A DNA stretch of 45,099 bases from the sequence record OZ035753.1. The stretch is one strand, 5' to 3'. This stretch comes from Dhillonvirus LF50P3. Below, piece after piece: positions 24,389-30,510 of this stretch (position 1 is its first letter; every line of letters starts with the position of its first letter). The notes beneath the pieces were generated by a model. That model saw only the letters and a list, made by a program, of their open reading frames with translations, made no database searches and was not told the DNA's origin. The translations under genes were made by a program, and so were the position numbers.

Positions 24389-24410
24389 GGGGCCATCCGG
24401 CCCCTTTTTT
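24389..24410. terminator. bidirectional intrinsic terminator
   Basis: GGGGCC-atcc-GGCCCC stem-loop followed by TTTTTT; between the tail fiber stop (24382) and the minus-strand stop at 24409. Confidence 0.7.
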
Positions 24411-24984
24411 AGTTTGAGTTTTCCCAGTCCATTTTGCGCCGCACCAGCGGGCTTTCGTAATATTCCTTGCCTTCCACTTCCACCAGAGGCCAGTCGTTCA
24501 CAATCACGTATGGCTCTGCGATATCCTCGATCACGCCGTGCGCGCTTTGCGGCCCTAACGATACACCCACCAGGATAACACCGGCAACGCGACGTGACAG
24601 ATACTCGCGAGCGCAACGCGCCTCTACCAGCCCGCGACGGATGCCGCTGGTGGCTTTAACCTCGTAGGTCCAGACGGCATCGATCACATGCTCGCGGAAG
24701 TCGGGGCCGGACTTTACCTTGCGCTTGCCGACCATGATGATATCGCCGCGGTCGATGGTATTGGAGCTAAACAAGCCGGTACGCATTAGTAAGCCTTGCG
24801 GTATGCAACTACGCCCGCCCGCCTGCCCCTCAAGGTACATACCGGCAAACATCTCGCCCAAAACACCGACAAGACGGCTTTGCTTGCACGCGTCAGACTT
24901 TAAGCGCCACTGGTCAAACTCGATGCTTGCTATCATCGCCGCCAGGTGGAATTGTTTACCGGATATTTCATATTCGCCGTACAT
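24409..24984 (-). CDS. hypothetical protein, possible PD-(D/E)xK-type nuclease
   Basis: 191-aa ORF with RBS GAGGA; contains a D...EVK arrangement (VIDAVWTYEVKATSG) reminiscent of restriction-endonuclease-fold nucleases; weak motif-level call only. Confidence 0.4.
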   Translation of the reverse strand: MYGEYEISGKQFHLAAMIASIEFDQWRLKSDACKQSRLVGVLGEMFAGMYLEGQAGGRSCIPQGLLMRTGLFSSNTIDRGDIIMVGKRKVKSGPDFREHVIDAVWTYEVKATSGIRRGLVEARCAREYLSRRVAGVILVGVSLGPQSAHGVIEDIAEPYVIVNDWPLVEVEGKEYYESPLVRRKMDWENSN

Positions 24985-25026
24985 CGTGTGGTCCTCATTG
25001 ATGCGGGCCGAAGCCCGCGATTAGAA

Positions 25027-25548
25027 TTATTTCAGTGCGCTACGTACCAGTGTTTTTTCCATGTTGCGGAAGTCTTCCGGCGTCATGAGGATTTTGGACC
25101 CATCCTCGCCAGTGAGCACGACAATAGGCTGGACGTCCTGGGCTACGACGCCGAAATCGGCGGCTTTGACAGTCTTGCCCGCAGATGCCGAAGGACTCCA
25201 CGTTCCGCCTGTTTTGATGGGCCAACCTTTAAGGCTGTCGTATTGCGCTGCCGTTGTATCGACCTGAATCTCGTCGTGTACGGTCATGTACGACTCGCCC
25301 AGCAATGCGGCATACGCCACCAGATCCACGATGTTATCTTCCTGGTGCTTACGGTGCTGGCGCACCAGCTTCAGGCAGATCAGGAAGGTCCAGGCTTCTT
25401 GCTCGGTAAGGTCGCGACCGGTAAGCGCGTTAAACACGGCGGCGACCTGTTTAGCGCTGCGTTCTTCTTTCGCGTTGTCATAGCCGTTTTCTTTTCCGCG
25501 CTGCTCCATAGTGGTGGCGGCGTTTTTGCAGTATTCGTATGCTTTCAT
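25027..25548 (-). CDS. hypothetical protein
   Basis: 173-aa ORF preceded by a sigma70-like promoter candidate; no confident motif. Confidence 0.5.
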   Translation of the reverse strand: MKAYEYCKNAATTMEQRGKENGYDNAKEERSAKQVAAVFNALTGRDLTEQEAWTFLICLKLVRQHRKHQEDNIVDLVAYAALLGESYMTVHDEIQVDTTAAQYDSLKGWPIKTGGTWSPSASAGKTVKAADFGVVAQDVQPIVVLTGEDGSKILMTPEDFRNMEKTLVRSALK

Positions 25549-25593
25549 TATGTTTTCCTTTTTAGCGTGGGGCCGTATTGCCCCGACGCGTTA

Positions 25594-25623
25594 ACTATAG
25601 TGCAACCAACCTATTGGTTGCAA
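25594..25623 (-). promoter_or_regulatory. sigma70-like promoter candidate overlapping a 22-bp palindrome
   Basis: Minus-strand reading TTGCAA, 18-nt spacer, TATAGT; the -35 lies inside the palindrome TGCAACCAAcctaTTGGTTGCA (25601–25622), which also overlaps the stop of the upstream gene. Confidence 0.45.
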
Positions 25624-26081
25624 GTGAATTTTGCAACGTTTATCGCATAAATTTTCGGGACCAGATCGCTGCACGCCCGACGAATTGCCGCGATGTTCTT
25701 AGGACAGTCTTCAATGATGACCAGTTCCGATACGTCCGCATAGCAGACCATTTTGAACACCGCGCACGCTTTAAACTCTGGCGGCGGGGTGTCGTCCAGC
25801 ATGTGGCGCATAAACAACCGCCCTACGGGGAATACTTCCAATTGCTCGGCGGTGGTTTCCCAGCATTCGCGCTGCCGGTTTGTCAGATACGCTATCTCGA
25901 AGCCTTGCTCTTTATACATGCGCAACAGCGGCAGCATATCCATGTTCAGGTCTTCGCGTACGTGCGCTTTGTGCCACTTCGCCCAAAAAGTGGATTTGGT
26001 TTTTATACCCGGCACAAGGTCGGCGCGTGCATCACTCGAACCATTAATAACGCCATCCAGATCACAAATCAGTAGTTTCAT
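25611..26081 (-). CDS. HAD-superfamily phosphatase-like protein (possible nucleotidase)
   Basis: 156-aa ORF with RBS GAGGAA and the HAD motif I signature LLICDLDGV at the N-terminus. Confidence 0.5.
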   Translation of the reverse strand: MKLLICDLDGVINGSSDARADLVPGIKTKSTFWAKWHKAHVREDLNMDMLPLLRMYKEQGFEIAYLTNRQRECWETTAEQLEVFPVGRLFMRHMLDDTPPPEFKACAVFKMVCYADVSELVIIEDCPKNIAAIRRACSDLVPKIYAINVAKFTCNQ

Positions 26082-26302
26082 TTTAATTCCTCAACCAAAT
26101 CCGAACGAACAACTCTGGCGGAAAACTTGTTACACACAAGATGCCAATTTGCGGTTATGACAAGCCAGCCGGTAAGGTCCATACCCAGGATATATTCTGG
26201 ACGTGACACTCGCTTCACACGATCGCGGCGCGGGTCGATGTTATAGTCTCTTTGCATTCGGTCTACTACCGCGGGGTCGCGGTCAACGATTAAGATATTC
26301 AT
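26078..26302 (-). CDS. hypothetical protein
   Basis: 74-aa ORF from the internal ATG (MNILIVDRD); the listed ORF starts at GTG 26311. Packed between the HAD-like and Dam-like genes. Confidence 0.4.
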   Translation of the reverse strand: MNILIVDRDPAVVDRMQRDYNIDPRRDRVKRVSRPEYILGMDLTGWLVITANWHLVCNKFSARVVRSDLVEELK

Positions 26303-26768
26303 GTAACTCACTCTCGCTCATTATTTCAATTTGTGCGCTGCCGATGGGCGGCGCTTCGTCAAATATTATCAATTGCTGGCACTTGTTATTGCTCGGCCCG
26401 ACTTCACCGGTTACAGCGTGTATAAATCTCACCCGCCAGTCCAGAAGAATTATCAGGTTTGCAGTCCTCCGGGCCAGCCTCGCCCACTTCGTCGACGTGT
26501 CCTGATTCAGTAGCATGACAGTCCGGCGTCCGTGCGCTGCGCACTCGACCCACGGCAGCGGGTCGGAATACGGCGGATTGCACCACTTCCACCCTTTCAA
26601 CTCTGCCCAGTCCACATCAAGCGCGCTGTGCTCTGCCGTGAAGTAACGCGGTAGCAGATGATTGGCGTCGCTTGCCGCCATATCGTAACGGAATCGGTAT
26701 TTCCGACGAAGCGGTTTAAATAAAGCTGGCGGCGTGCGCCAGCTATCTTTTTGCTCACTCTTCAGCAT
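26283..26768 (-). CDS. dam: DNA N6-adenine methyltransferase (phage Dam-type)
   Basis: 161-aa ORF with N-terminal WRTPPALF, DMAASDANHL and the catalytic NPPY motif, matching the small phage Dam family. Confidence 0.75.
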   Translation of the reverse strand: MLKSEQKDSWRTPPALFKPLRRKYRFRYDMAASDANHLLPRYFTAEHSALDVDWAELKGWKWCNPPYSDPLPWVECAAHGRRTVMLLNQDTSTKWARLARRTANLIILLDWRVRFIHAVTGEVGPSNNKCQQLIIFDEAPPIGSAQIEIMSESELHEYLNR

Positions 26769-27219
26769 GATCTTGGTCTATCGCGTACAGGGCAATCTTA
26801 TCGCCTTTCGTCAAGATGCGCTGCACGCGCTTTGACTCCTCGGCGCTCATAGGGCGAGCGTTCGGGTATAGGCTGCCGTTTGTGGGATTGCGCCACGCCA
26901 CAAGCACCAGATCTTTCCGGTCGATCTTAGACTGGCGGCCCTTCGGTCGCACGTACGCCTCGGCCCGTTTGCAATGCTCGCGCAGACCTTCGGCAGTGAT
27001 GCGGTTTAGCGCGACGGTGGTTGTGTACCCGGTGCGCTGCATAATACCCATCAACTCATACAGCAGTTCGAAGCGCTCCTCTAACTCCTTGCGCATCTTT
27101 TCCTCGCCTTCATAGCTCGCCAGGTAGGTATCCGCCAGCGCGTTCGCCCGTTCGACCTGTTCGCGGGCTTCGAGGCATTGCGCGGCCCAGTAATTTTTCT
27201 CTTCTTGTAAAATTTTCAT
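26755..27219 (-). CDS. hypothetical protein
   Basis: ORF from MKILQEEKNYWAAQ with RBS GGAGA; promoter-like element 27266–27294 upstream; helical and charged, no confident motif. Confidence 0.5.
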   Translation of the reverse strand: MKILQEEKNYWAAQCLEAREQVERANALADTYLASYEGEEKMRKELEERFELLYELMGIMQRTGYTTTVALNRITAEGLREHCKRAEAYVRPKGRQSKIDRKDLVLVAWRNPTNGSLYPNARPMSAEESKRVQRILTKGDKIALYAIDQDHAEE

Positions 27220-27265
27220 CGTGTTGTCTCCAGGTATTAAAAAGGGCGTCCAACCGGACACCCTT

Positions 27266-27294
27266 AAGATAATGCAACCAATCTAATTATGCAA
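27266..27294 (-). promoter_or_regulatory. sigma70-like promoter candidate with tandem TTGGTTGCA elements
   Basis: Minus-strand reading aTTGGTTGCATaattagaTTGGTTGCATTATCTT: TTGCAT, 17-nt spacer, TATCTT. Confidence 0.45.
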
Positions 27295-27299
27295 CCAAT

Positions 27300-27623
27300 T
27301 TACGAATAAAAATTTGGGTCGCGTGCAACGTCTACCAGATACAGATTGCAGATTCGGTTGCCGTAGTGGCCTGGTGTTCGCTGGCGGCACACAACGGCGT
27401 AGCCTGGAGGAATTGTATTGCCGGTCGCGATAATCCACGCCACGCGTGCGCCCGATAGAGTTTTGCCGTTGCATTCGATGCGCGTGCCGCCATCTGCAGT
27501 GTTAAGGTTGCCGATTTTGCAGCCGGTGGACTTCAGACGAATGACGCCGGTTTTGCTGTCGTAGGTGAATAGCTGGTTAGTCATTGCGACCGAAAAGTCG
27601 ATGGCTTCGAATGTCGTATTCAT
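27300..27623 (-). CDS. HNH-like endonuclease, possibly degenerate
   Basis: 107-aa ORF whose layout (YDSKTGVIRLK...GKTLSGARVAWIIATG...GNRICNLYLV) resembles small phage HNH homing-endonuclease-like proteins, but the canonical His-Asn-His residues are not clearly present. Confidence 0.45.
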   Translation of the reverse strand: MNTTFEAIDFSVAMTNQLFTYDSKTGVIRLKSTGCKIGNLNTADGGTRIECNGKTLSGARVAWIIATGNTIPPGYAVVCRQRTPGHYGNRICNLYLVDVARDPNFYS

Positions 27624-28330
27624 TTTAAATTTTCCTCGTTAACCGCTATCGCGAAGCCGCGCGGAGTGAGCGACCGGATTAATTTTGTGCGGGCTGATTT
27701 GCCTCCGAGGCGACTATACTGCTTCGAGTACCCTTTTTCAACGAAAACGGGTTTCTTCTCTGGCATACGGAAGCCGTTGCCGGTCCATAAGCAGGTCAGC
27801 TTCGGATATGAATCGCGGGCGTTGATGTATTCCGGGAAGAGCGGGTGTACGTCATCCTCCGGCAGATATCCCCCATACTCCCACGGGTCGAATGAGTGAT
27901 CCGGTTTGCGCCACTGGGTGGATAGCACACTGCGCGGATTCTCAATCATATATGGCACTTCGAAGAAGTCACCCAGGTAAGCGGCGATCTTCGCGGTGCG
28001 CACCGCCTTAAGCTGAAAGGCTGGGTCTTTTGCACGCTTGCGCGGGAAAGCTGGCGCACCGCTCACTGCCAGATCCGTGCACGGAGGAAACGCATAGATG
28101 ATATCTGGCGTACCGAAATCGCCATTCATCGCACGGTCTACAAAGTCCAGATCGATAAACTCATTGCGATACCGGATTCCGCGACCATAAATCCGGTAGT
28201 CAAGGTAAGACCCGTGATCGGCTTCGGAGTAGTTGAAGCAATAACACTTATGCCCCATCTCAGCCGCACGCTCAATCATCAAGCCGCTGCCGTCAAACAA
28301 CGACCAGATTGTCATTTTAGCAATAGTCAT
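27620..28330 (-). CDS. C5-cytosine DNA methyltransferase-like protein (compact)
   Basis: 236-aa ORF with motif I-like SLFDGSG, motif IV-like AFPPCTDLAVSG (catalytic Cys, Thr in place of the usual Gln) and motif VI-like MIENPRS; shorter than typical C5 methyltransferases. Confidence 0.5.
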   Translation of the reverse strand: MTIAKMTIWSLFDGSGLMIERAAEMGHKCYCFNYSEADHGSYLDYRIYGRGIRYRNEFIDLDFVDRAMNGDFGTPDIIYAFPPCTDLAVSGAPAFPRKRAKDPAFQLKAVRTAKIAAYLGDFFEVPYMIENPRSVLSTQWRKPDHSFDPWEYGGYLPEDDVHPLFPEYINARDSYPKLTCLWTGNGFRMPEKKPVFVEKGYSKQYSRLGGKSARTKLIRSLTPRGFAIAVNEENLK

Positions 28331-29787
28331 TTGCGCGCCTTTTTAGCTTTCATGTATTCCATCAAGTCGTCCTGGATATCTCGCTTACTGTCGCGGCGCT
28401 CGGCGACCAATTCGTCCAGTGTCCCGCGCGCCTGGATAATGTAGACGAATACCGGTCGAGGGTGTCCGGCCTGCATCTGGCGAACCGGCCCGATACGTTC
28501 AACGATCTGCGAAAAGTGCTCAAAGTTCCAGGTATCGGAGAAGATTGCCAGGTGATGACCGCCGTCCTGCAAGTTAAGGCCGTGGCCCGCCGATGCCGGG
28601 TGCGCAAACATGATGGGGATCTCGCCTCTGTTCCACGCTTCCATATCCTTATTGCCCTGCTTACCTTTACCCAGCGCAACGCCGTGCGGAAATTTCTTCT
28701 TAAGACGTGCCAGGTCATGCTTGTACTGATACGCAACGAGCAACGGCGCACCGTTCAACTCCTCCACGATACTTTCCAGCGCGTCCAGTTTGGCGTCGTG
28801 AATCTTCACCCACTCGTCGGTCCTTTCGCCGTCTTCGTCCACCTTATACACAGCGCCGGAAGCAAGCTGAAGGCACTTAATTGTCTTCGATGCCGCGTTC
28901 GCCGCTTCCACAGTCCCGCTTTCCAGTTCGGCGAATAGCTCGCTTTCAAACTGGTCGTAAATCTTGCGGGCTTTCTTCGGCAGGTCCACAACAACAGGCG
29001 TATAGATTGGCTTGTCGCACCCGAAATATTCAGCCGCGTCAACGGTGAGGGATACATCTGACAGACGTTGTTGTATCTCTTTCTCGGAGTTCTTTAGCGG
29101 AGCGTGCTGCATAGTGAAGCTGCCAGGCTTAACAGGCTTGCTAATGAACCAGCGGTCGGTAAATGCCTTATAGCTACTGCCGAGGCGTTCGCCACCGTCG
29201 ACAAACCACGTCTGACCCCATAAGTCTTTCAGCCCGTTGGGTGCGGGTGTGCCTGTAAGGTTAATCCAGCGCTTGACGTGTTTATGTGCAATCGCTGCCA
29301 GTGCGCGGGCGCGCTTGCTCCCCTGCTTGCTACGATAGCCTTTCAGCTTAGTCGATTCATCGGCAACAACGACCGTAAAGGGCCACGCATCGCCGTAATA
29401 TTCGACCAGCCACTCAACCACATCGTAGTTAACACAAACCACGTTAGCGTCGCTCTCAAGCGCGGCAATACGGTCCTTCTCCGGTCCGGTGCCGTCTACG
29501 ACCAGCAGGGATGAGAACCGCCATTTCTCCTGTTCCGGGGGCCATGTACCCGACGCAACACGCAGCGGGGCCAGCACCAGTACGCGGTCCTCATGATGGG
29601 ACAGGACGCCAGTCTGGAACATTTTATTCAGCGCCCACATTGTCGCGCCGGTTTTACCGGATCCCATTGTCGCCCATATATTACATCGCTTATGCTTGAG
29701 GATGAACGCGGTTATCAACTTCTGATATTCGCGGCGTCGGAAACGTGCCATATCTTTATTCCGCCTTTTTCCAGACTTCTGTTTCAC
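28327..29787 (-). CDS. SNF2/DEAD-like superfamily II helicase
   Basis: 486-aa ORF with Walker A-like MGSGKTG, DEAD-box-like VVADESTKL and C-terminal helicase-domain motifs. Confidence 0.8.
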   Translation of the reverse strand: MKQKSGKRRNKDMARFRRREYQKLITAFILKHKRCNIWATMGSGKTGATMWALNKMFQTGVLSHHEDRVLVLAPLRVASGTWPPEQEKWRFSSLLVVDGTGPEKDRIAALESDANVVCVNYDVVEWLVEYYGDAWPFTVVVADESTKLKGYRSKQGSKRARALAAIAHKHVKRWINLTGTPAPNGLKDLWGQTWFVDGGERLGSSYKAFTDRWFISKPVKPGSFTMQHAPLKNSEKEIQQRLSDVSLTVDAAEYFGCDKPIYTPVVVDLPKKARKIYDQFESELFAELESGTVEAANAASKTIKCLQLASGAVYKVDEDGERTDEWVKIHDAKLDALESIVEELNGAPLLVAYQYKHDLARLKKKFPHGVALGKGKQGNKDMEAWNRGEIPIMFAHPASAGHGLNLQDGGHHLAIFSDTWNFEHFSQIVERIGPVRQMQAGHPRPVFVYIIQARGTLDELVAERRDSKRDIQDDLMEYMKAKKARK

Positions 29788-30231: not shown

Positions 30232-30510
30232 TTACGCGACCAATTCAGCAACCAATAAATCACAGTCGGCTATGTTGTCGATGACGCGAACGTCCGCACC
30301 GCGGCGGGCCATCCGCTCATGTTCTCGTACCTGGTGCGGCTTCGGTTTGCCTCCGGGGCGCTTCACTTCGACGAAAACTATTCTGCCGTTGATGATGATA
30401 ATCAGATCGGGCGCACCGGCGCGCCCCTCCCAAGCCACTTTGCGGCAGAATCCGCCGACGGCTTTCACCAGCTTCATAAGGTGACTTTGAATCTTGCCTT
30501 CTGGTGTCAT
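30232..30510 (-). CDS. VRR-NUC domain nuclease
   Basis: 92-aa ORF with PDLIIIINGRIVFVEVKRPGGK, the D...E.K core of VRR-NUC/PD-(D/E)xK nucleases commonly found next to phage helicase genes. Confidence 0.7.
   Translation of the reverse strand: MTPEGKIQSHLMKLVKAVGGFCRKVAWEGRAGAPDLIIIINGRIVFVEVKRPGGKPKPHQVREHERMARRGADVRVIDNIADCDLLVAELVA

What the first reader, a model, noticed from the sequence alone, without database searches (positions are those of the whole stretch)
26283..28330. DNA-modification cluster: Dam-type adenine methyltransferase and compact C5-like methyltransferase flanking an HNH-like gene
Seen directly: within 2 kb on the minus strand are a Dam-family enzyme (NPPY motif), a 154-aa unknown, a small HNH-like protein and a 236-aa protein with C5-methyltransferase motifs I, IV and VI. 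Established knowledge: phage-encoded orphan methyltransferases protect the genome from host restriction. Inference: this phage may methylate both adenine and cytosine; the HNH-like gene between them could be a selfish insertion.
Basis: partly seen in the sequence, partly recalled or inferred. Interest (0 to 1): 0.5.

Follow-up and report, generated by a model that had tools for sequence, protein, structure and literature searches.

The report
Known Dhillonvirus Dam and Dcm-like methyltransferase genes
This 2-kb stretch of an E. coli phage (genus Dhillonvirus) really does encode an adenine and a compact cytosine DNA methyltransferase with a small HNH-type nuclease gene between them, but the same gene set is already annotated in about 150 sequenced relatives, so it is ordinary.

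Summary
On the minus strand, 26283-28330 encodes four genes:
- a T1/HP1-type Dam (Pfam PF05869, E 5e-35, NPPY at aa 64-67);
- a 154-aa protein found only in this genus;
- a 107-aa HNH_3-like protein that is a nuclease domain only;
- a 236-aa compact C5-cytosine methyltransferase.

The window is a complete Dhillonvirus genome. All four genes are syntenic and already labelled Dam-like, HNH and Dcm-like in about 150 GenBank records. The C5 enzyme is 54% identical over its full length to the Dcm of phage KarlJaspers. In a 95%-identical strain (K42), that Dcm was shown by LC-MS to make 5mC and to trigger retron Ec86.

The "selfish insertion" idea is not supported as a recent event. The HNH-like gene is in 157 of 157 Dhillonvirus records at the same locus. 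Its start overlaps the methyltransferase stop codon, and its dN/dS is 0.06.

Target sites and any anti-restriction benefit remain inferred. Published phenotyping finds Dhillonviruses restriction-sensitive compared with the 7-deazaguanine-modified Queuovirinae. The genome instead avoids many 6-bp palindromes.

Verdict: real, already known, low interest.

The parts
26283..26768 (-). T1/HP1-type phage DNA N6-adenine methyltransferase (Dam-like), 161 aa
   Evidence: Pfam PF05869 E 5.2e-35. PHROG 111, E 5.8e-54. PADLOC orphan-MTase model, E 9.6e-11. NPPY at aa 64-67. 92-99% identical in other Dhillonviruses, where it is annotated 'Dam-like'. dN/dS 0.14.
26755..27219 (-). 154-aa protein found only in Dhillonvirus, function unknown (helical or coiled-coil N-terminal half); its 'DNA ligase' label in PHROG and RefSeq is unsupported
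   Evidence: PHROG 10530, E 7e-96, full profile 1-154. No Pfam, NCBIfam or PADLOC hit. PDB search gives only weak coiled-coil noise, E >= 0.06. Present in 155 phage records, all Dhillonvirus-type, at 64-93% identity. dN/dS 0.12. GGAG ribosome-binding site before the ATG at 27219.
27300..27623 (-). 107-aa HNH_3-like protein, nuclease domain only, with no C-terminal DNA-binding module
   Evidence: PHROG 99, E 4e-16, profile positions 108-198 of 383. hhalign against the HNH_3+AP2 endonuclease AH01_52 aligns His86 and Asn93-Leu94 to the catalytic motif. G85, H86, Y87, R90, N93, L94, D98 and D102 are invariant across six family members, including the Eiauvirus homologs. Present in 157 of 157 Dhillonvirus records. 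Only 8 clusters among 5.8 billion proteins. dN/dS 0.06. The ATG overlaps the stop codon of the upstream methyltransferase gene, and a GAGGA ribosome-binding site precedes it.
27620..28330 (-). Compact (236 aa) DNMT3-like DNA cytosine-C5 methyltransferase ('Dcm-like', PHROG 757 family)
26078..26302 (-). Context: Ksap1 homolog (74 aa from the ATG), the next gene downstream of Dam in the same operon
   Evidence: PHROG 10685, E 7.8e-46, profile 1-74 of 74. Same position, between the methyltransferase and phosphatase genes, as Ksap1 of SECphi18, the trigger of KpAvs2 (PMC11564622). Leu47 and Thr50, the escape positions in that paper, are present in the window's sequence (read from the translation).
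28327..29787 (-). Context: SNF2-family DNA helicase immediately upstream; its stop codon overlaps the C5 methyltransferase start
   Evidence: Pfam PF00176 E 1.8e-10 and PHROG 62 E 1.7e-156. Four-base overlap of the ORFs.

Best explanation
The stretch is an ordinary, conserved part of the leftward early/replication operon of a Dhillonvirus (HK578-like E. coli siphovirus). It encodes two orphan DNA methyltransferases.

The first is a minimal T1/HP1-type Dam. It should transfer a methyl group from SAM to adenine N6, most likely in GATC. The site is inferred from characterised relatives, which I recall from my own knowledge.

The second is a compact, DNMT3-like C5-cytosine methyltransferase. It has a catalytic Cys84 in a PPC motif, Glu130 in an ENP motif, and a short target-recognition region of about 60 residues. 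It should make 5-methylcytosine at a short, narrow motif. That motif is called 'Dcm-like'/CCWGG in annotations, but the specificity has not been determined.

Both enzymes would act on replicating phage DNA, and on any other DNA in the cell. They would protect only against restriction enzymes whose sites overlap their motifs. The rest of the phage's anti-restriction strategy is avoidance of 6-bp palindromes.

Between the two methyltransferase genes lie a fixed, selectively maintained HNH_3-like nuclease-domain protein and a genus-specific 154-aa protein. The roles of both are unknown.

Shown here: gene identities, predicted fold, catalytic motifs, conservation, synteny and purifying selection. 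Shown in the literature for a 54%-identical homolog: 5mC formation. Inferred: target sites, timing and biological benefit.
For: - Identity of the phage and synteny: 92-94% nucleotide identity to about 150 Dhillonvirus genomes with the same gene order and the same annotations.
- Dam: PF05869 at E 5e-35 with NPPY.
- C5 enzyme: high-confidence model whose best 13 PDB neighbours are all DNA C5-methyltransferases. Motifs I, IV and VI align to M.HhaI and DNMT3A. Cys84, Glu130, Arg141 and Lys177 are conserved in 94-104 of 108 diverse representatives.
- Experimental anchor: 54% full-length identity to KarlJaspers Dcm. The K42 allele of that gene raised 5mC on retron Ec86 msDNA by LC-MS. A C82A/E128A/K175A/K176A mutant did not. 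Those residues correspond to C84, E130, K177 and L178 here.
- Operon context: strong sigma-70-like promoters at about 37.1-37.3 kb on the minus strand, and 4-14-base gene overlaps.
- Purifying selection on all four genes.
- GATC (168 observed, 208 expected) and CCWGG (155 observed, 165 expected) are not avoided, whereas about 20 six-base palindromes are nearly absent.
Against: - No methylation data exist for this phage or, as far as I found, for any Dhillonvirus.
- The CCWGG specificity of the homolog was assumed from host Dcm rather than measured.
- Pfam PF00145 does not recognise the protein.
- The usual acidic motif-II residue is Asn33 in this subfamily, where 94 of 108 representatives have Asp.
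- BASEL phenotyping gives no sign that the methyltransferases confer restriction resistance.
- Deletion mutants of the Dcm gene (K42) remain viable, as do SECphi18 mutants lacking part of the gene upstream of ksap1, which by gene order is Dam. The genes are therefore dispensable in the laboratory.
Confidence: 0.8

Rival explanations
1. The HNH-like gene is an active, selfish free-standing homing endonuclease inserted between the methyltransferase genes.
For: It is HNH_3-like with the catalytic His and Asn retained. HNH_3 homing endonucleases are common in related phages, for example AH01 gene 52 next to the helicase. The Eiauvirus homolog carries a relic of an I-HmuI NUMOD-like domain at its N-terminus. 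Synonymous divergence of this gene and of the 154-aa gene (dS 0.62-0.70) is higher than in the flanking genes (0.13-0.23), so this segment has a different history.
Against: It is present in 157 of 157 Dhillonvirus records at one locus, so no empty target sites are seen. It has no DNA-binding domain: 107 aa against 165-174 aa for AH01_52 and I-HmuI. Its start overlaps the upstream stop codon, so it is not a separate expression unit. dN/dS is 0.06. The family is extremely narrow, with 8 clusters in 5.8 billion proteins.
Confidence: 0.08
2. The methyltransferases do not serve anti-restriction. They handle phage DNA metabolism instead. Dam methylation could keep rapidly replicating DNA from MutH or SeqA action, or could regulate packaging or gene expression, with the cytosine enzyme playing a similar housekeeping or decoy role.
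For: The genes sit in the replication operon between the helicase and the phosphatase. BASEL found no link between methyltransferases and restriction resistance. The genome already avoids most 6-bp palindromes. K-12 hosts already supply Dam and Dcm methylation (own knowledge).
Against: No direct evidence. Orphan phage Dam and Dcm-type enzymes are classically linked to protection from restriction at GATC- and CCWGG-overlapping sites (own knowledge). These two motifs are among those not avoided in the genome, which fits protection by methylation.
Confidence: 0.12
3. The compact C5-like enzyme does not make 5mC in DNA. It either uses another cofactor, such as carboxy-SAM supplied by the host enzyme CmoA (giving 5-carboxymethylcytosine, as CmoX does), or it acts on RNA, as DNMT2 does.
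Against: The 54%-identical K42 Dcm gave 5mC by LC-MS against a synthetic standard. DNMT3A and DNMT3B, the best structural matches, have 'GRSW' where M.HhaI has 'GNSV' near the C-terminus (sequences verified), so they also appear to carry Arg at this position; that equivalence, and their use of SAM, are my own reading and knowledge. No CmoA or amide-ligase gene is annotated in the colinear genome. I could not align Arg224 to HhaI Asn304 with any tool.
Confidence: 0.03
4. The HNH-like nuclease and the C5 methyltransferase work as a pair, like a small restriction-modification module. Methylated phage DNA would be spared while unmethylated host or competitor DNA is nicked or cut.
For: The nuclease gene is kept next to a C5 methyltransferase and a PF05869 Dam in two genera, although the C5 enzyme is of a different type in Eiauvirus (a canonical PF00145 protein of 330 aa). 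The gene starts overlap the preceding stops, purifying selection is strong and the His/Asn motif is retained.
Against: The compact methyltransferase family occurs in 1511 phage records, while the HNH-like protein occurs only in Dhillonvirus and Eiauvirus. No DNA-recognition domain is detectable. The structure prediction failed. Host DNA in dcm+ strains would be protected if the site is CCWGG.
Confidence: 0.05

Closest known systems
Dcm-like C5 cytosine methyltransferase of Escherichia phage KarlJaspers (Bas06 gene bas06_0055; strain K42 Dcm, the trigger of retron Ec86/Eco1)
   Same: Same length (236 aa) and 54% identity over the whole protein, E 2e-86. Same PHROG 757 family. The same catalytic Cys and Glu, and one of the two Lys residues mutated in that study, are present (C84, E130, K177). 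The authors also modelled it on DNMT3A.
   Different: It comes from a different phage family (Drexlerviridae, Hanrivervirus) and a different genomic context: there the Dam and Dcm genes are 6 kb apart on opposite strands. K176 is Leu178 here. Activity and retron triggering have not been tested for the Dhillonvirus protein.
Annotated Dam-like / HNH / Dcm-like gene set of sequenced Dhillonviruses (e.g. PaulFeyerabend Bas15 genes 0033-0036, welsh genes 16-20, SECphi18, Sodalis phage SO-1)
   Same: Same four genes in the same order and strand at 92-94% nucleotide identity. The C5 protein is 100% identical to that of vB_EcoS-UDS3lw.
   Different: Only allelic differences. Some relatives (welsh, jat, Sponge, Gluttony_ev152) carry an extra 243-bp gene between the 154-aa gene and the HNH-like gene. 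The annotated C5 start differs by 5 codons in some records.
T1/HP1/VT-2-type phage Dam methyltransferases (Pfam PF05869, TIGR01712)
   Same: Small single-domain N6-adenine methyltransferase with an (N/D)PPY motif. Clear Pfam match. 35% identity to the Haemophilus phage HP1 homolog and 36% to Stx-phage homologs.
   Different: It scores below the TIGR01712 equivalog cut-off, 83 against 97 bits. It is only 30% identical to the 233-aa Dam-like protein of KarlJaspers. GATC specificity is known for T1, HP1 and VT-2 from my own knowledge and was not tested here.
Eukaryotic DNMT3A/DNMT3B catalytic domain
   Different: 13-14% identity. No dimerisation or regulatory domains. Phage origin. The protein is about 50 residues shorter.
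HNH_3 free-standing homing endonucleases (I-HmuI; Pantoea phage AH01 gene 52)
   Same: The same PHROG 99 family. The N-terminal beta-rich region plus the HNH_3 nuclease motif are alignable, with His and Asn-Leu conserved.
   Different: No Pfam HNH_3 hit. The His-to-Asn spacing is 2 residues shorter than in AH01_52. No AP2 or NUMOD DNA-binding domain. The gene is fixed in the genus rather than sporadic. A direct pairwise alignment to I-HmuI is not significant (z = -0.8).

Membership tests
Phage N6-adenine methyltransferase, Pfam PF05869 (T1/HP1 Dam type) | Match to the family HMM above the curated threshold | tested here: met
   PF05869 at 121.1 bits against a cut-off of 28.1, E 5.2e-35, covering residues 2-143. 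The stricter NCBIfam equivalog TIGR01712 is below its cut-off, 83 against 97 bits.
Phage N6-adenine methyltransferase, Pfam PF05869 (T1/HP1 Dam type) | Catalytic (D/N)PPY motif | tested here: met
   NPPY at aa 64-67, in WCNPPYS.
Phage N6-adenine methyltransferase, Pfam PF05869 (T1/HP1 Dam type) | m6A formation at GATC | not testable with these tools
   Needs methylome or restriction assays. GATC is not avoided in the genome: 168 observed, 208 expected.
DNA cytosine-C5 methyltransferase superfamily (Pfam PF00145) | Match to PF00145 | tested here: not met
   No Pfam hit at E <= 0.1, no NCBIfam hit, and no PDB sequence hit even with a family profile. Only a few close homologs carry a precomputed PF00145 flag.
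DNA cytosine-C5 methyltransferase superfamily (Pfam PF00145) | Motif I (FxGxG), motif IV (PC with the catalytic Cys) and motif VI (ENV with the Glu) | tested here: met
   F12-x-G14-x-G16, P83-C84 and E130-N131-P132, aligned to M.HhaI F18/G20/G22/C81 and to DNMT3A motifs I, IV and VI. Cys is conserved in 100 of 108 diverse representatives and Glu in 104 of 108.
DNA cytosine-C5 methyltransferase superfamily (Pfam PF00145) | C5-methyltransferase fold | tested here: met
DNA cytosine-C5 methyltransferase superfamily (Pfam PF00145) | Motif X (GN[A/S]V) closing the cofactor pocket | tested here: inconclusive
   The sequence T-P-R224-G-F-A-x-A-V lies at the start of the last helix. No tool gave a reliable alignment of this region to HhaI or DNMT3A.
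Compact phage 'Dcm-like' methyltransferases (PHROG 757; K42/KarlJaspers Dcm) | Full-length homology to the experimentally studied member, with its catalytic residues | tested here: met
   PHROG 757 at E 7.4e-84. 54% identity over 234 aa to bas06_0055. C82, E128 and K175 correspond to C84, E130 and K177; K176 is Leu178 here.
Compact phage 'Dcm-like' methyltransferases (PHROG 757; K42/KarlJaspers Dcm) | 5mC formation; CCWGG specificity | not testable with these tools
   5mC was shown only for the K42 protein, and CCWGG was assumed there from host Dcm. CCWGG is not avoided in the window: 155 observed, 165 expected.
HNH_3 free-standing homing endonucleases | HNH_3 nuclease motif (His general base, Asn-Leu) | tested here: inconclusive
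   No Pfam HNH_3 hit even at E <= 10. PHROG 99 gives E 4e-16. hhalign against AH01_52 puts His86 and Asn93-Leu94 on the motif, but at low hhalign probability (5.8%, E 0.0065). The residues are invariant in the family. The AF2 model is unusable, pLDDT 45.
HNH_3 free-standing homing endonucleases | C-terminal DNA-binding module (AP2, NUMOD, IENR) | tested here: not met
   The protein ends right after the nuclease motif. It covers PHROG 99 positions 108-198, whereas AH01_52 covers 117-272 and has an AP2 domain.
HNH_3 free-standing homing endonucleases | Sporadic presence or absence among close relatives (mobility) | tested here: not met
   Present in all 157 Dhillonvirus-type records that match the region, always next to the C5 gene.
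CmoX DNA cytosine C5-carboxymethyltransferases | SPPC motif, Arg replacing the motif-X Asn, and a phage CmoA or amide ligase nearby | tested here: not met
   The motif is FPPC, not SPPC. The equivalence of the Arg is unresolved. No CmoA or ligase is annotated in the colinear genome. The criteria are taken from PMC12783734.

The most novel reading that the evidence does not exclude
The small HNH_3-like nuclease-domain protein is not a relic. It is a working partner of the phage methyltransferases: a methylation-aware nicking or cutting activity that spares phage DNA modified by the adjacent Dam and C5 enzymes, making a minimal phage-borne restriction-modification-like module. This would explain three things: why it is kept beside a C5 methyltransferase and a PF05869 Dam in both Dhillonvirus and Eiauvirus although the C5 enzyme is of a different type there, why its start overlaps the methyltransferase stop codon, and why it is under strong purifying selection.
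Probability: 0.05. Interest if true: 0.55.

Novelty: already known. Interest (0 to 1): 0.12.

Why it matters
It matters little beyond correct annotation.

The useful points:
1. The 'Dcm-like' label in GenBank rests on fold and motifs, not on Pfam, and its target site has never been measured. Calling it CCWGG-specific is an assumption.
2. Two genes in this small operon are known, or close homologs of known, triggers of bacterial immunity. The Dcm family triggers retron Ec86. Ksap1 triggers KpAvs2. The locus is therefore relevant for predicting which defence systems will stop such phages in therapy or biotechnology.
3. The 'DNA ligase' label propagated for the 154-aa gene has no support and should not be copied.
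4. The HNH-like gene is a fixed core gene of the genus, not a mobile passenger.

Tried and rejected
1. Sequence searches of the 236-aa protein against Pfam, NCBIfam, PADLOC and the PDB, as a single sequence and as a 31-sequence profile, found nothing. Only PHROG, the predicted structure and profile alignment identified it.

3. I tried to align motif X to M.HhaI Asn304 and DNMT3A Arg891 with hhalign, using both the 31-sequence and the 108-sequence profiles. Only motifs I to VI aligned reliably.

4. AlphaFold model of the HNH-like protein: pLDDT 45, unusable, so no fold search was run on it.

5. Direct pairwise alignment of the HNH-like protein to I-HmuI was not significant, z = -0.8. hhalign against I-HmuI matched only the N-terminal extension of the Eiauvirus homolog. 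My first guess, that Cys79 replaces the catalytic His, was dropped. Cys79 is not conserved, and hhalign placed His86 on the HNH_3 His.

6. Two of the three large protein searches went to the HNH-like protein and returned only 5 and 8 clusters, with no bridge to canonical HNH_3 families.

7. The 'restriction endonuclease' annotated next to the compact methyltransferase in Pantoea phage AH01 looked like a possible R-M pairing. It turned out to be the VRR-NUC-type protein (PHROG 93) that the window also encodes at 30232-30510.

8. A literature search for T1/HP1 Dam specificity returned only chromatin HP1 papers. GATC specificity of that family is therefore cited from my own knowledge.

9. I found no published methylome or restriction-digest data for any Dhillonvirus.
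Full report
**What is in the sequence.**
- Dam-type gene: 26283-26768, 161 aa.
- 154-aa gene: 26755-27219. A GTG at 27261 would give 168 aa, but the PHROG profile matches residues 15-168 to its full length, which favours the ATG.
- HNH-like gene: 27300-27623, 107 aa.
- C5-like gene: 27620-28330, 236 aa.

The genes are tightly packed. The helicase stop overlaps the C5 start by 4 bases. The C5 stop overlaps the HNH-like start by 4 bases. The 154-aa gene overlaps Dam by 14 bases. Recognisable ribosome-binding sites precede the starts. Strong sigma-70-like promoters lie at about 37.1-37.3 kb on the same strand. The four genes therefore belong to the long leftward early/replication operon.

**Where the window comes from.** The region is 92-94% identical at the nucleotide level to about 150 genomes of the genus Dhillonvirus. 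These are HK578-like E. coli siphoviruses such as Gluttony, welsh, SECphi18, PaulFeyerabend/Bas15 and Sodalis phage SO-1. The whole window is colinear with PaulFeyerabend from the small terminase gene onward. In those records the same four genes are already annotated as 'Dam-like N6-adenine methyltransferase', 'hypothetical protein' (or 'DNA ligase'), 'putative HNH/homing endonuclease' and 'Dcm-like C5 cytosine methyltransferase'.

**The adenine methyltransferase.** It matches Pfam PF05869 (phage Dam) at E 5.2e-35, PHROG 111 and an orphan-methyltransferase model of PADLOC. NPPY lies at residues 64-67. Relatives occur in 1746 phage records, including Haemophilus phage HP1 and Stx phages at about 35% identity. 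From my own knowledge, the T1, HP1 and VT-2 members methylate GATC. I could not confirm this from the paper library. GATC is not avoided in the genome: 168 observed, 208 expected.

**The cytosine methyltransferase.** Sequence libraries other than PHROG (757, E 7e-84) do not recognise it. The big protein collections hold 2880 close homologs, and 824 clusters at 50% identity. The best-scoring listed members are mostly about 220-260 aa long.

Profile alignments place F12-x-G14-x-G16 on motif I, P83-C84 on the catalytic PC of motif IV, and E130-N-P on motif VI. Cys84, Glu130, Arg141 and Lys177 are conserved in 94-104 of 108 diverse representatives.

The region between Arg141 and the C-terminal helices is only about 60 residues long. 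This explains the compact size and the resemblance to DNMT3.

**Experimental anchor.** A preprint on retron Ec86 (10.1101/2023.08.16.553469) identified a 711-bp 'Dcm' gene of phage KarlJaspers strain K42 as the retron's trigger.
- Expressing it raised 5mC on the msDNA, measured by LC-MS against a synthetic standard.
- A C82A/E128A/K175A/K176A mutant did not raise 5mC.
- The authors modelled the protein on DNMT3A.

The Bas06 allele of that gene (bas06_0055) is also 236 aa. It is 54% identical to the window's protein over the full length, E 2e-86. The mutated residues correspond to C84, E130, K177 and L178 here. The family is thus experimentally tied to 5mC formation.

The CCWGG site was assumed from host Dcm rather than determined. 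The protein shares no detectable sequence family with E. coli Dcm. 'Dcm-like' is therefore a label, not a measured specificity.

**The HNH-like gene.** Support for 'HNH-like' comes from three results.
- PHROG 99 at E 4e-16, covering profile positions 108-198 of 383.
- An hhalign alignment to a bona fide HNH_3+AP2 endonuclease (Pantoea phage AH01 gene 52; Pfam HNH_3 E 1e-11). It aligns 76 columns at 32% identity and puts His86 and Asn93-Leu94 on the catalytic His and the NL of the motif.
- G85, H86, Y87, R90, N93, L94, D98 and D102 are invariant across six family members, including the Eiauvirus homologs.

Against it: no Pfam hit at all, a non-significant direct alignment to I-HmuI, and a failed structure prediction. 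The protein stops right after the nuclease motif and lacks the AP2/NUMOD DNA-binding part of real homing endonucleases.

**Is it a selfish insertion?** The evidence says not in any recent sense.
- The gene is found in every one of the 157 Dhillonvirus-type records that match the region, always at the same place, at 80-98% amino-acid identity.
- Outside the genus it occurs only in Edwardsiella Eiauvirus phages, at about 40% identity.
- It forms only 8 clusters among 5.8 billion proteins.
- Against PaulFeyerabend its dN/dS is 0.06 at dS 0.62, which is clear purifying selection.

In Eiauvirus eiAU-183 the homolog sits between the helicase and a canonical 330-aa PF00145 C5 methyltransferase, which is followed by a PF05869 Dam. 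The helicase / HNH-like / C5 / Dam neighbourhood is therefore older than the genus. The Eiauvirus protein carries a fragment of an I-HmuI-type NUMOD-like domain at its N-terminus, which hints at an ancient homing-endonuclease ancestry.

**The 154-aa gene.** It is restricted to Dhillonvirus (155 records, 64-93% identity). It has no match in Pfam, NCBIfam, PADLOC or the PDB beyond coiled-coil noise. It is under purifying selection, dN/dS 0.12. The 'DNA ligase' name attached to its PHROG and to some RefSeq records has no support. One record itself says 'possible DNA ligase but no evidence'.

**Does the cluster protect against restriction?** This part of the interpretation stays inferred.
[quoted passage not shown] For Drexlerviridae it found no simple relation between methyltransferase genes and restriction resistance.
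- The genome uses another strategy. Of the 54 six-base palindromes expected at least 5 times, 22% are essentially absent, against 0.18% of non-palindromic hexamers. Examples: AAGCTT 0 observed against 15 expected, GGCGCC 0 against 20, GCCGGC 0 against 17, CAGCTG 0 against 15, TCCGGA 1 against 16.
- Many of the avoided sites contain cytosine. The C5 enzyme therefore cannot be a broad-specificity protector.
- GATC and CCWGG are not avoided. This is what one expects if they are covered by methylation from the phage or the host.
- Both methyltransferases appear dispensable in the laboratory. K42 escapers lost dcm. [quoted passage not shown]

**Verdict.** The methylation inference is reasonable and partly backed by published work on a homolog. 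The anti-restriction benefit is unproven, and the selfish-insertion idea is not supported. The feature is a conserved, already annotated part of a well-sampled phage genus. Novelty: already known. Interest: low.

Noticed in passing
window 26078-26302 (minus strand; a GTG start at 26311 is possible): The 74-aa gene just downstream of Dam is a homolog of Ksap1, the SECphi18 protein that directly binds and activates the Klebsiella Avs2 defence protein. It matches PHROG 10685 at full length and sits in the same position, between the methyltransferase and phosphatase genes. Leu47 and Thr50, the escape-mutation positions, are present. It evolves faster than its neighbours (dN/dS 0.33).
   Followed up: partly
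whole window (1-45099): Strong, selective avoidance of about 20 six-base palindromes. For example AAGCTT, GGCGCC, GCCGGC, GGGCCC, CAGCTG and AGGCCT are absent although 10-20 copies are expected, and TCCGGA occurs once against 16 expected. 22% of palindromic hexamers have observed/expected below 0.1, against 0.18% of non-palindromic ones. GATC, CCWGG and GC-only sites such as GCGCGC are not avoided.
   Followed up: partly
window 26755-27623 compared with flanks 26283-26768 and 27620-29787: Against phage PaulFeyerabend, synonymous divergence is 0.62-0.70 in the HNH-like and 154-aa genes but 0.13-0.23 in Dam, the C5 gene and the helicase. The middle of the cluster therefore has a different, older or recombinant, history from its flanks.
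   Followed up: no
window 27220-27299 (gap between the 154-aa and HNH-like genes); L002 2215-2457: Several relatives (welsh, jat, Sponge, Gluttony_ev152) carry an extra 243-bp gene (80 aa, hypothetical) at this position. The window does not. This accounts for the roughly 240-bp length difference in the BLAST matches.
   Followed up: no
window 26724-26744: A perfect 8-bp G+C-rich inverted repeat (AGCTGGCG...CGCCAGCT) with T-rich tails on both strands. It lies inside the 5' end of the Dam gene, just below its 14-base overlap with the 154-aa gene, and is flagged as terminator-like on both strands.
   Followed up: no
L003 3360-3815 (Edwardsiella phage eiAU-183 gp17): The Eiauvirus homolog of the HNH-like protein has an N-terminal extension. 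Residues 8-31 of that extension resemble the C-terminal NUMOD-like DNA-binding element of I-HmuI. It looks like a remnant of another homing endonuclease fused in front of the nuclease domain.
   Followed up: partly
window 24409-26081 (minus strand): Downstream of Ksap1 the operon continues with three genes: a HAD-family phosphatase or polynucleotide-kinase-phosphatase-like protein (25611-26081), a DUF6378 protein (25027-25548) and a 191-aa protein of unknown function (24409-24984).
   Followed up: no
Shigella phage 1b, OR420686.2 36538-36708 (hit H129): In this Dhillonvirus-like record only the last quarter of the C5 methyltransferase matches (24% coverage at 91% identity), beside a gene annotated as a homing endonuclease. 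This may be a natural disruption of the gene.
   Followed up: no
C5 family alignment, position 33 of the window protein: In the enterobacterial-phage subfamily, including the active K42 homolog, the residue after beta-strand 2 that is Asp in 94 of 108 diverse family members (the usual ribose-binding acidic motif II) is Asn. It is followed by an invariant D38-H39-G40 not seen in the wider family.
   Followed up: no
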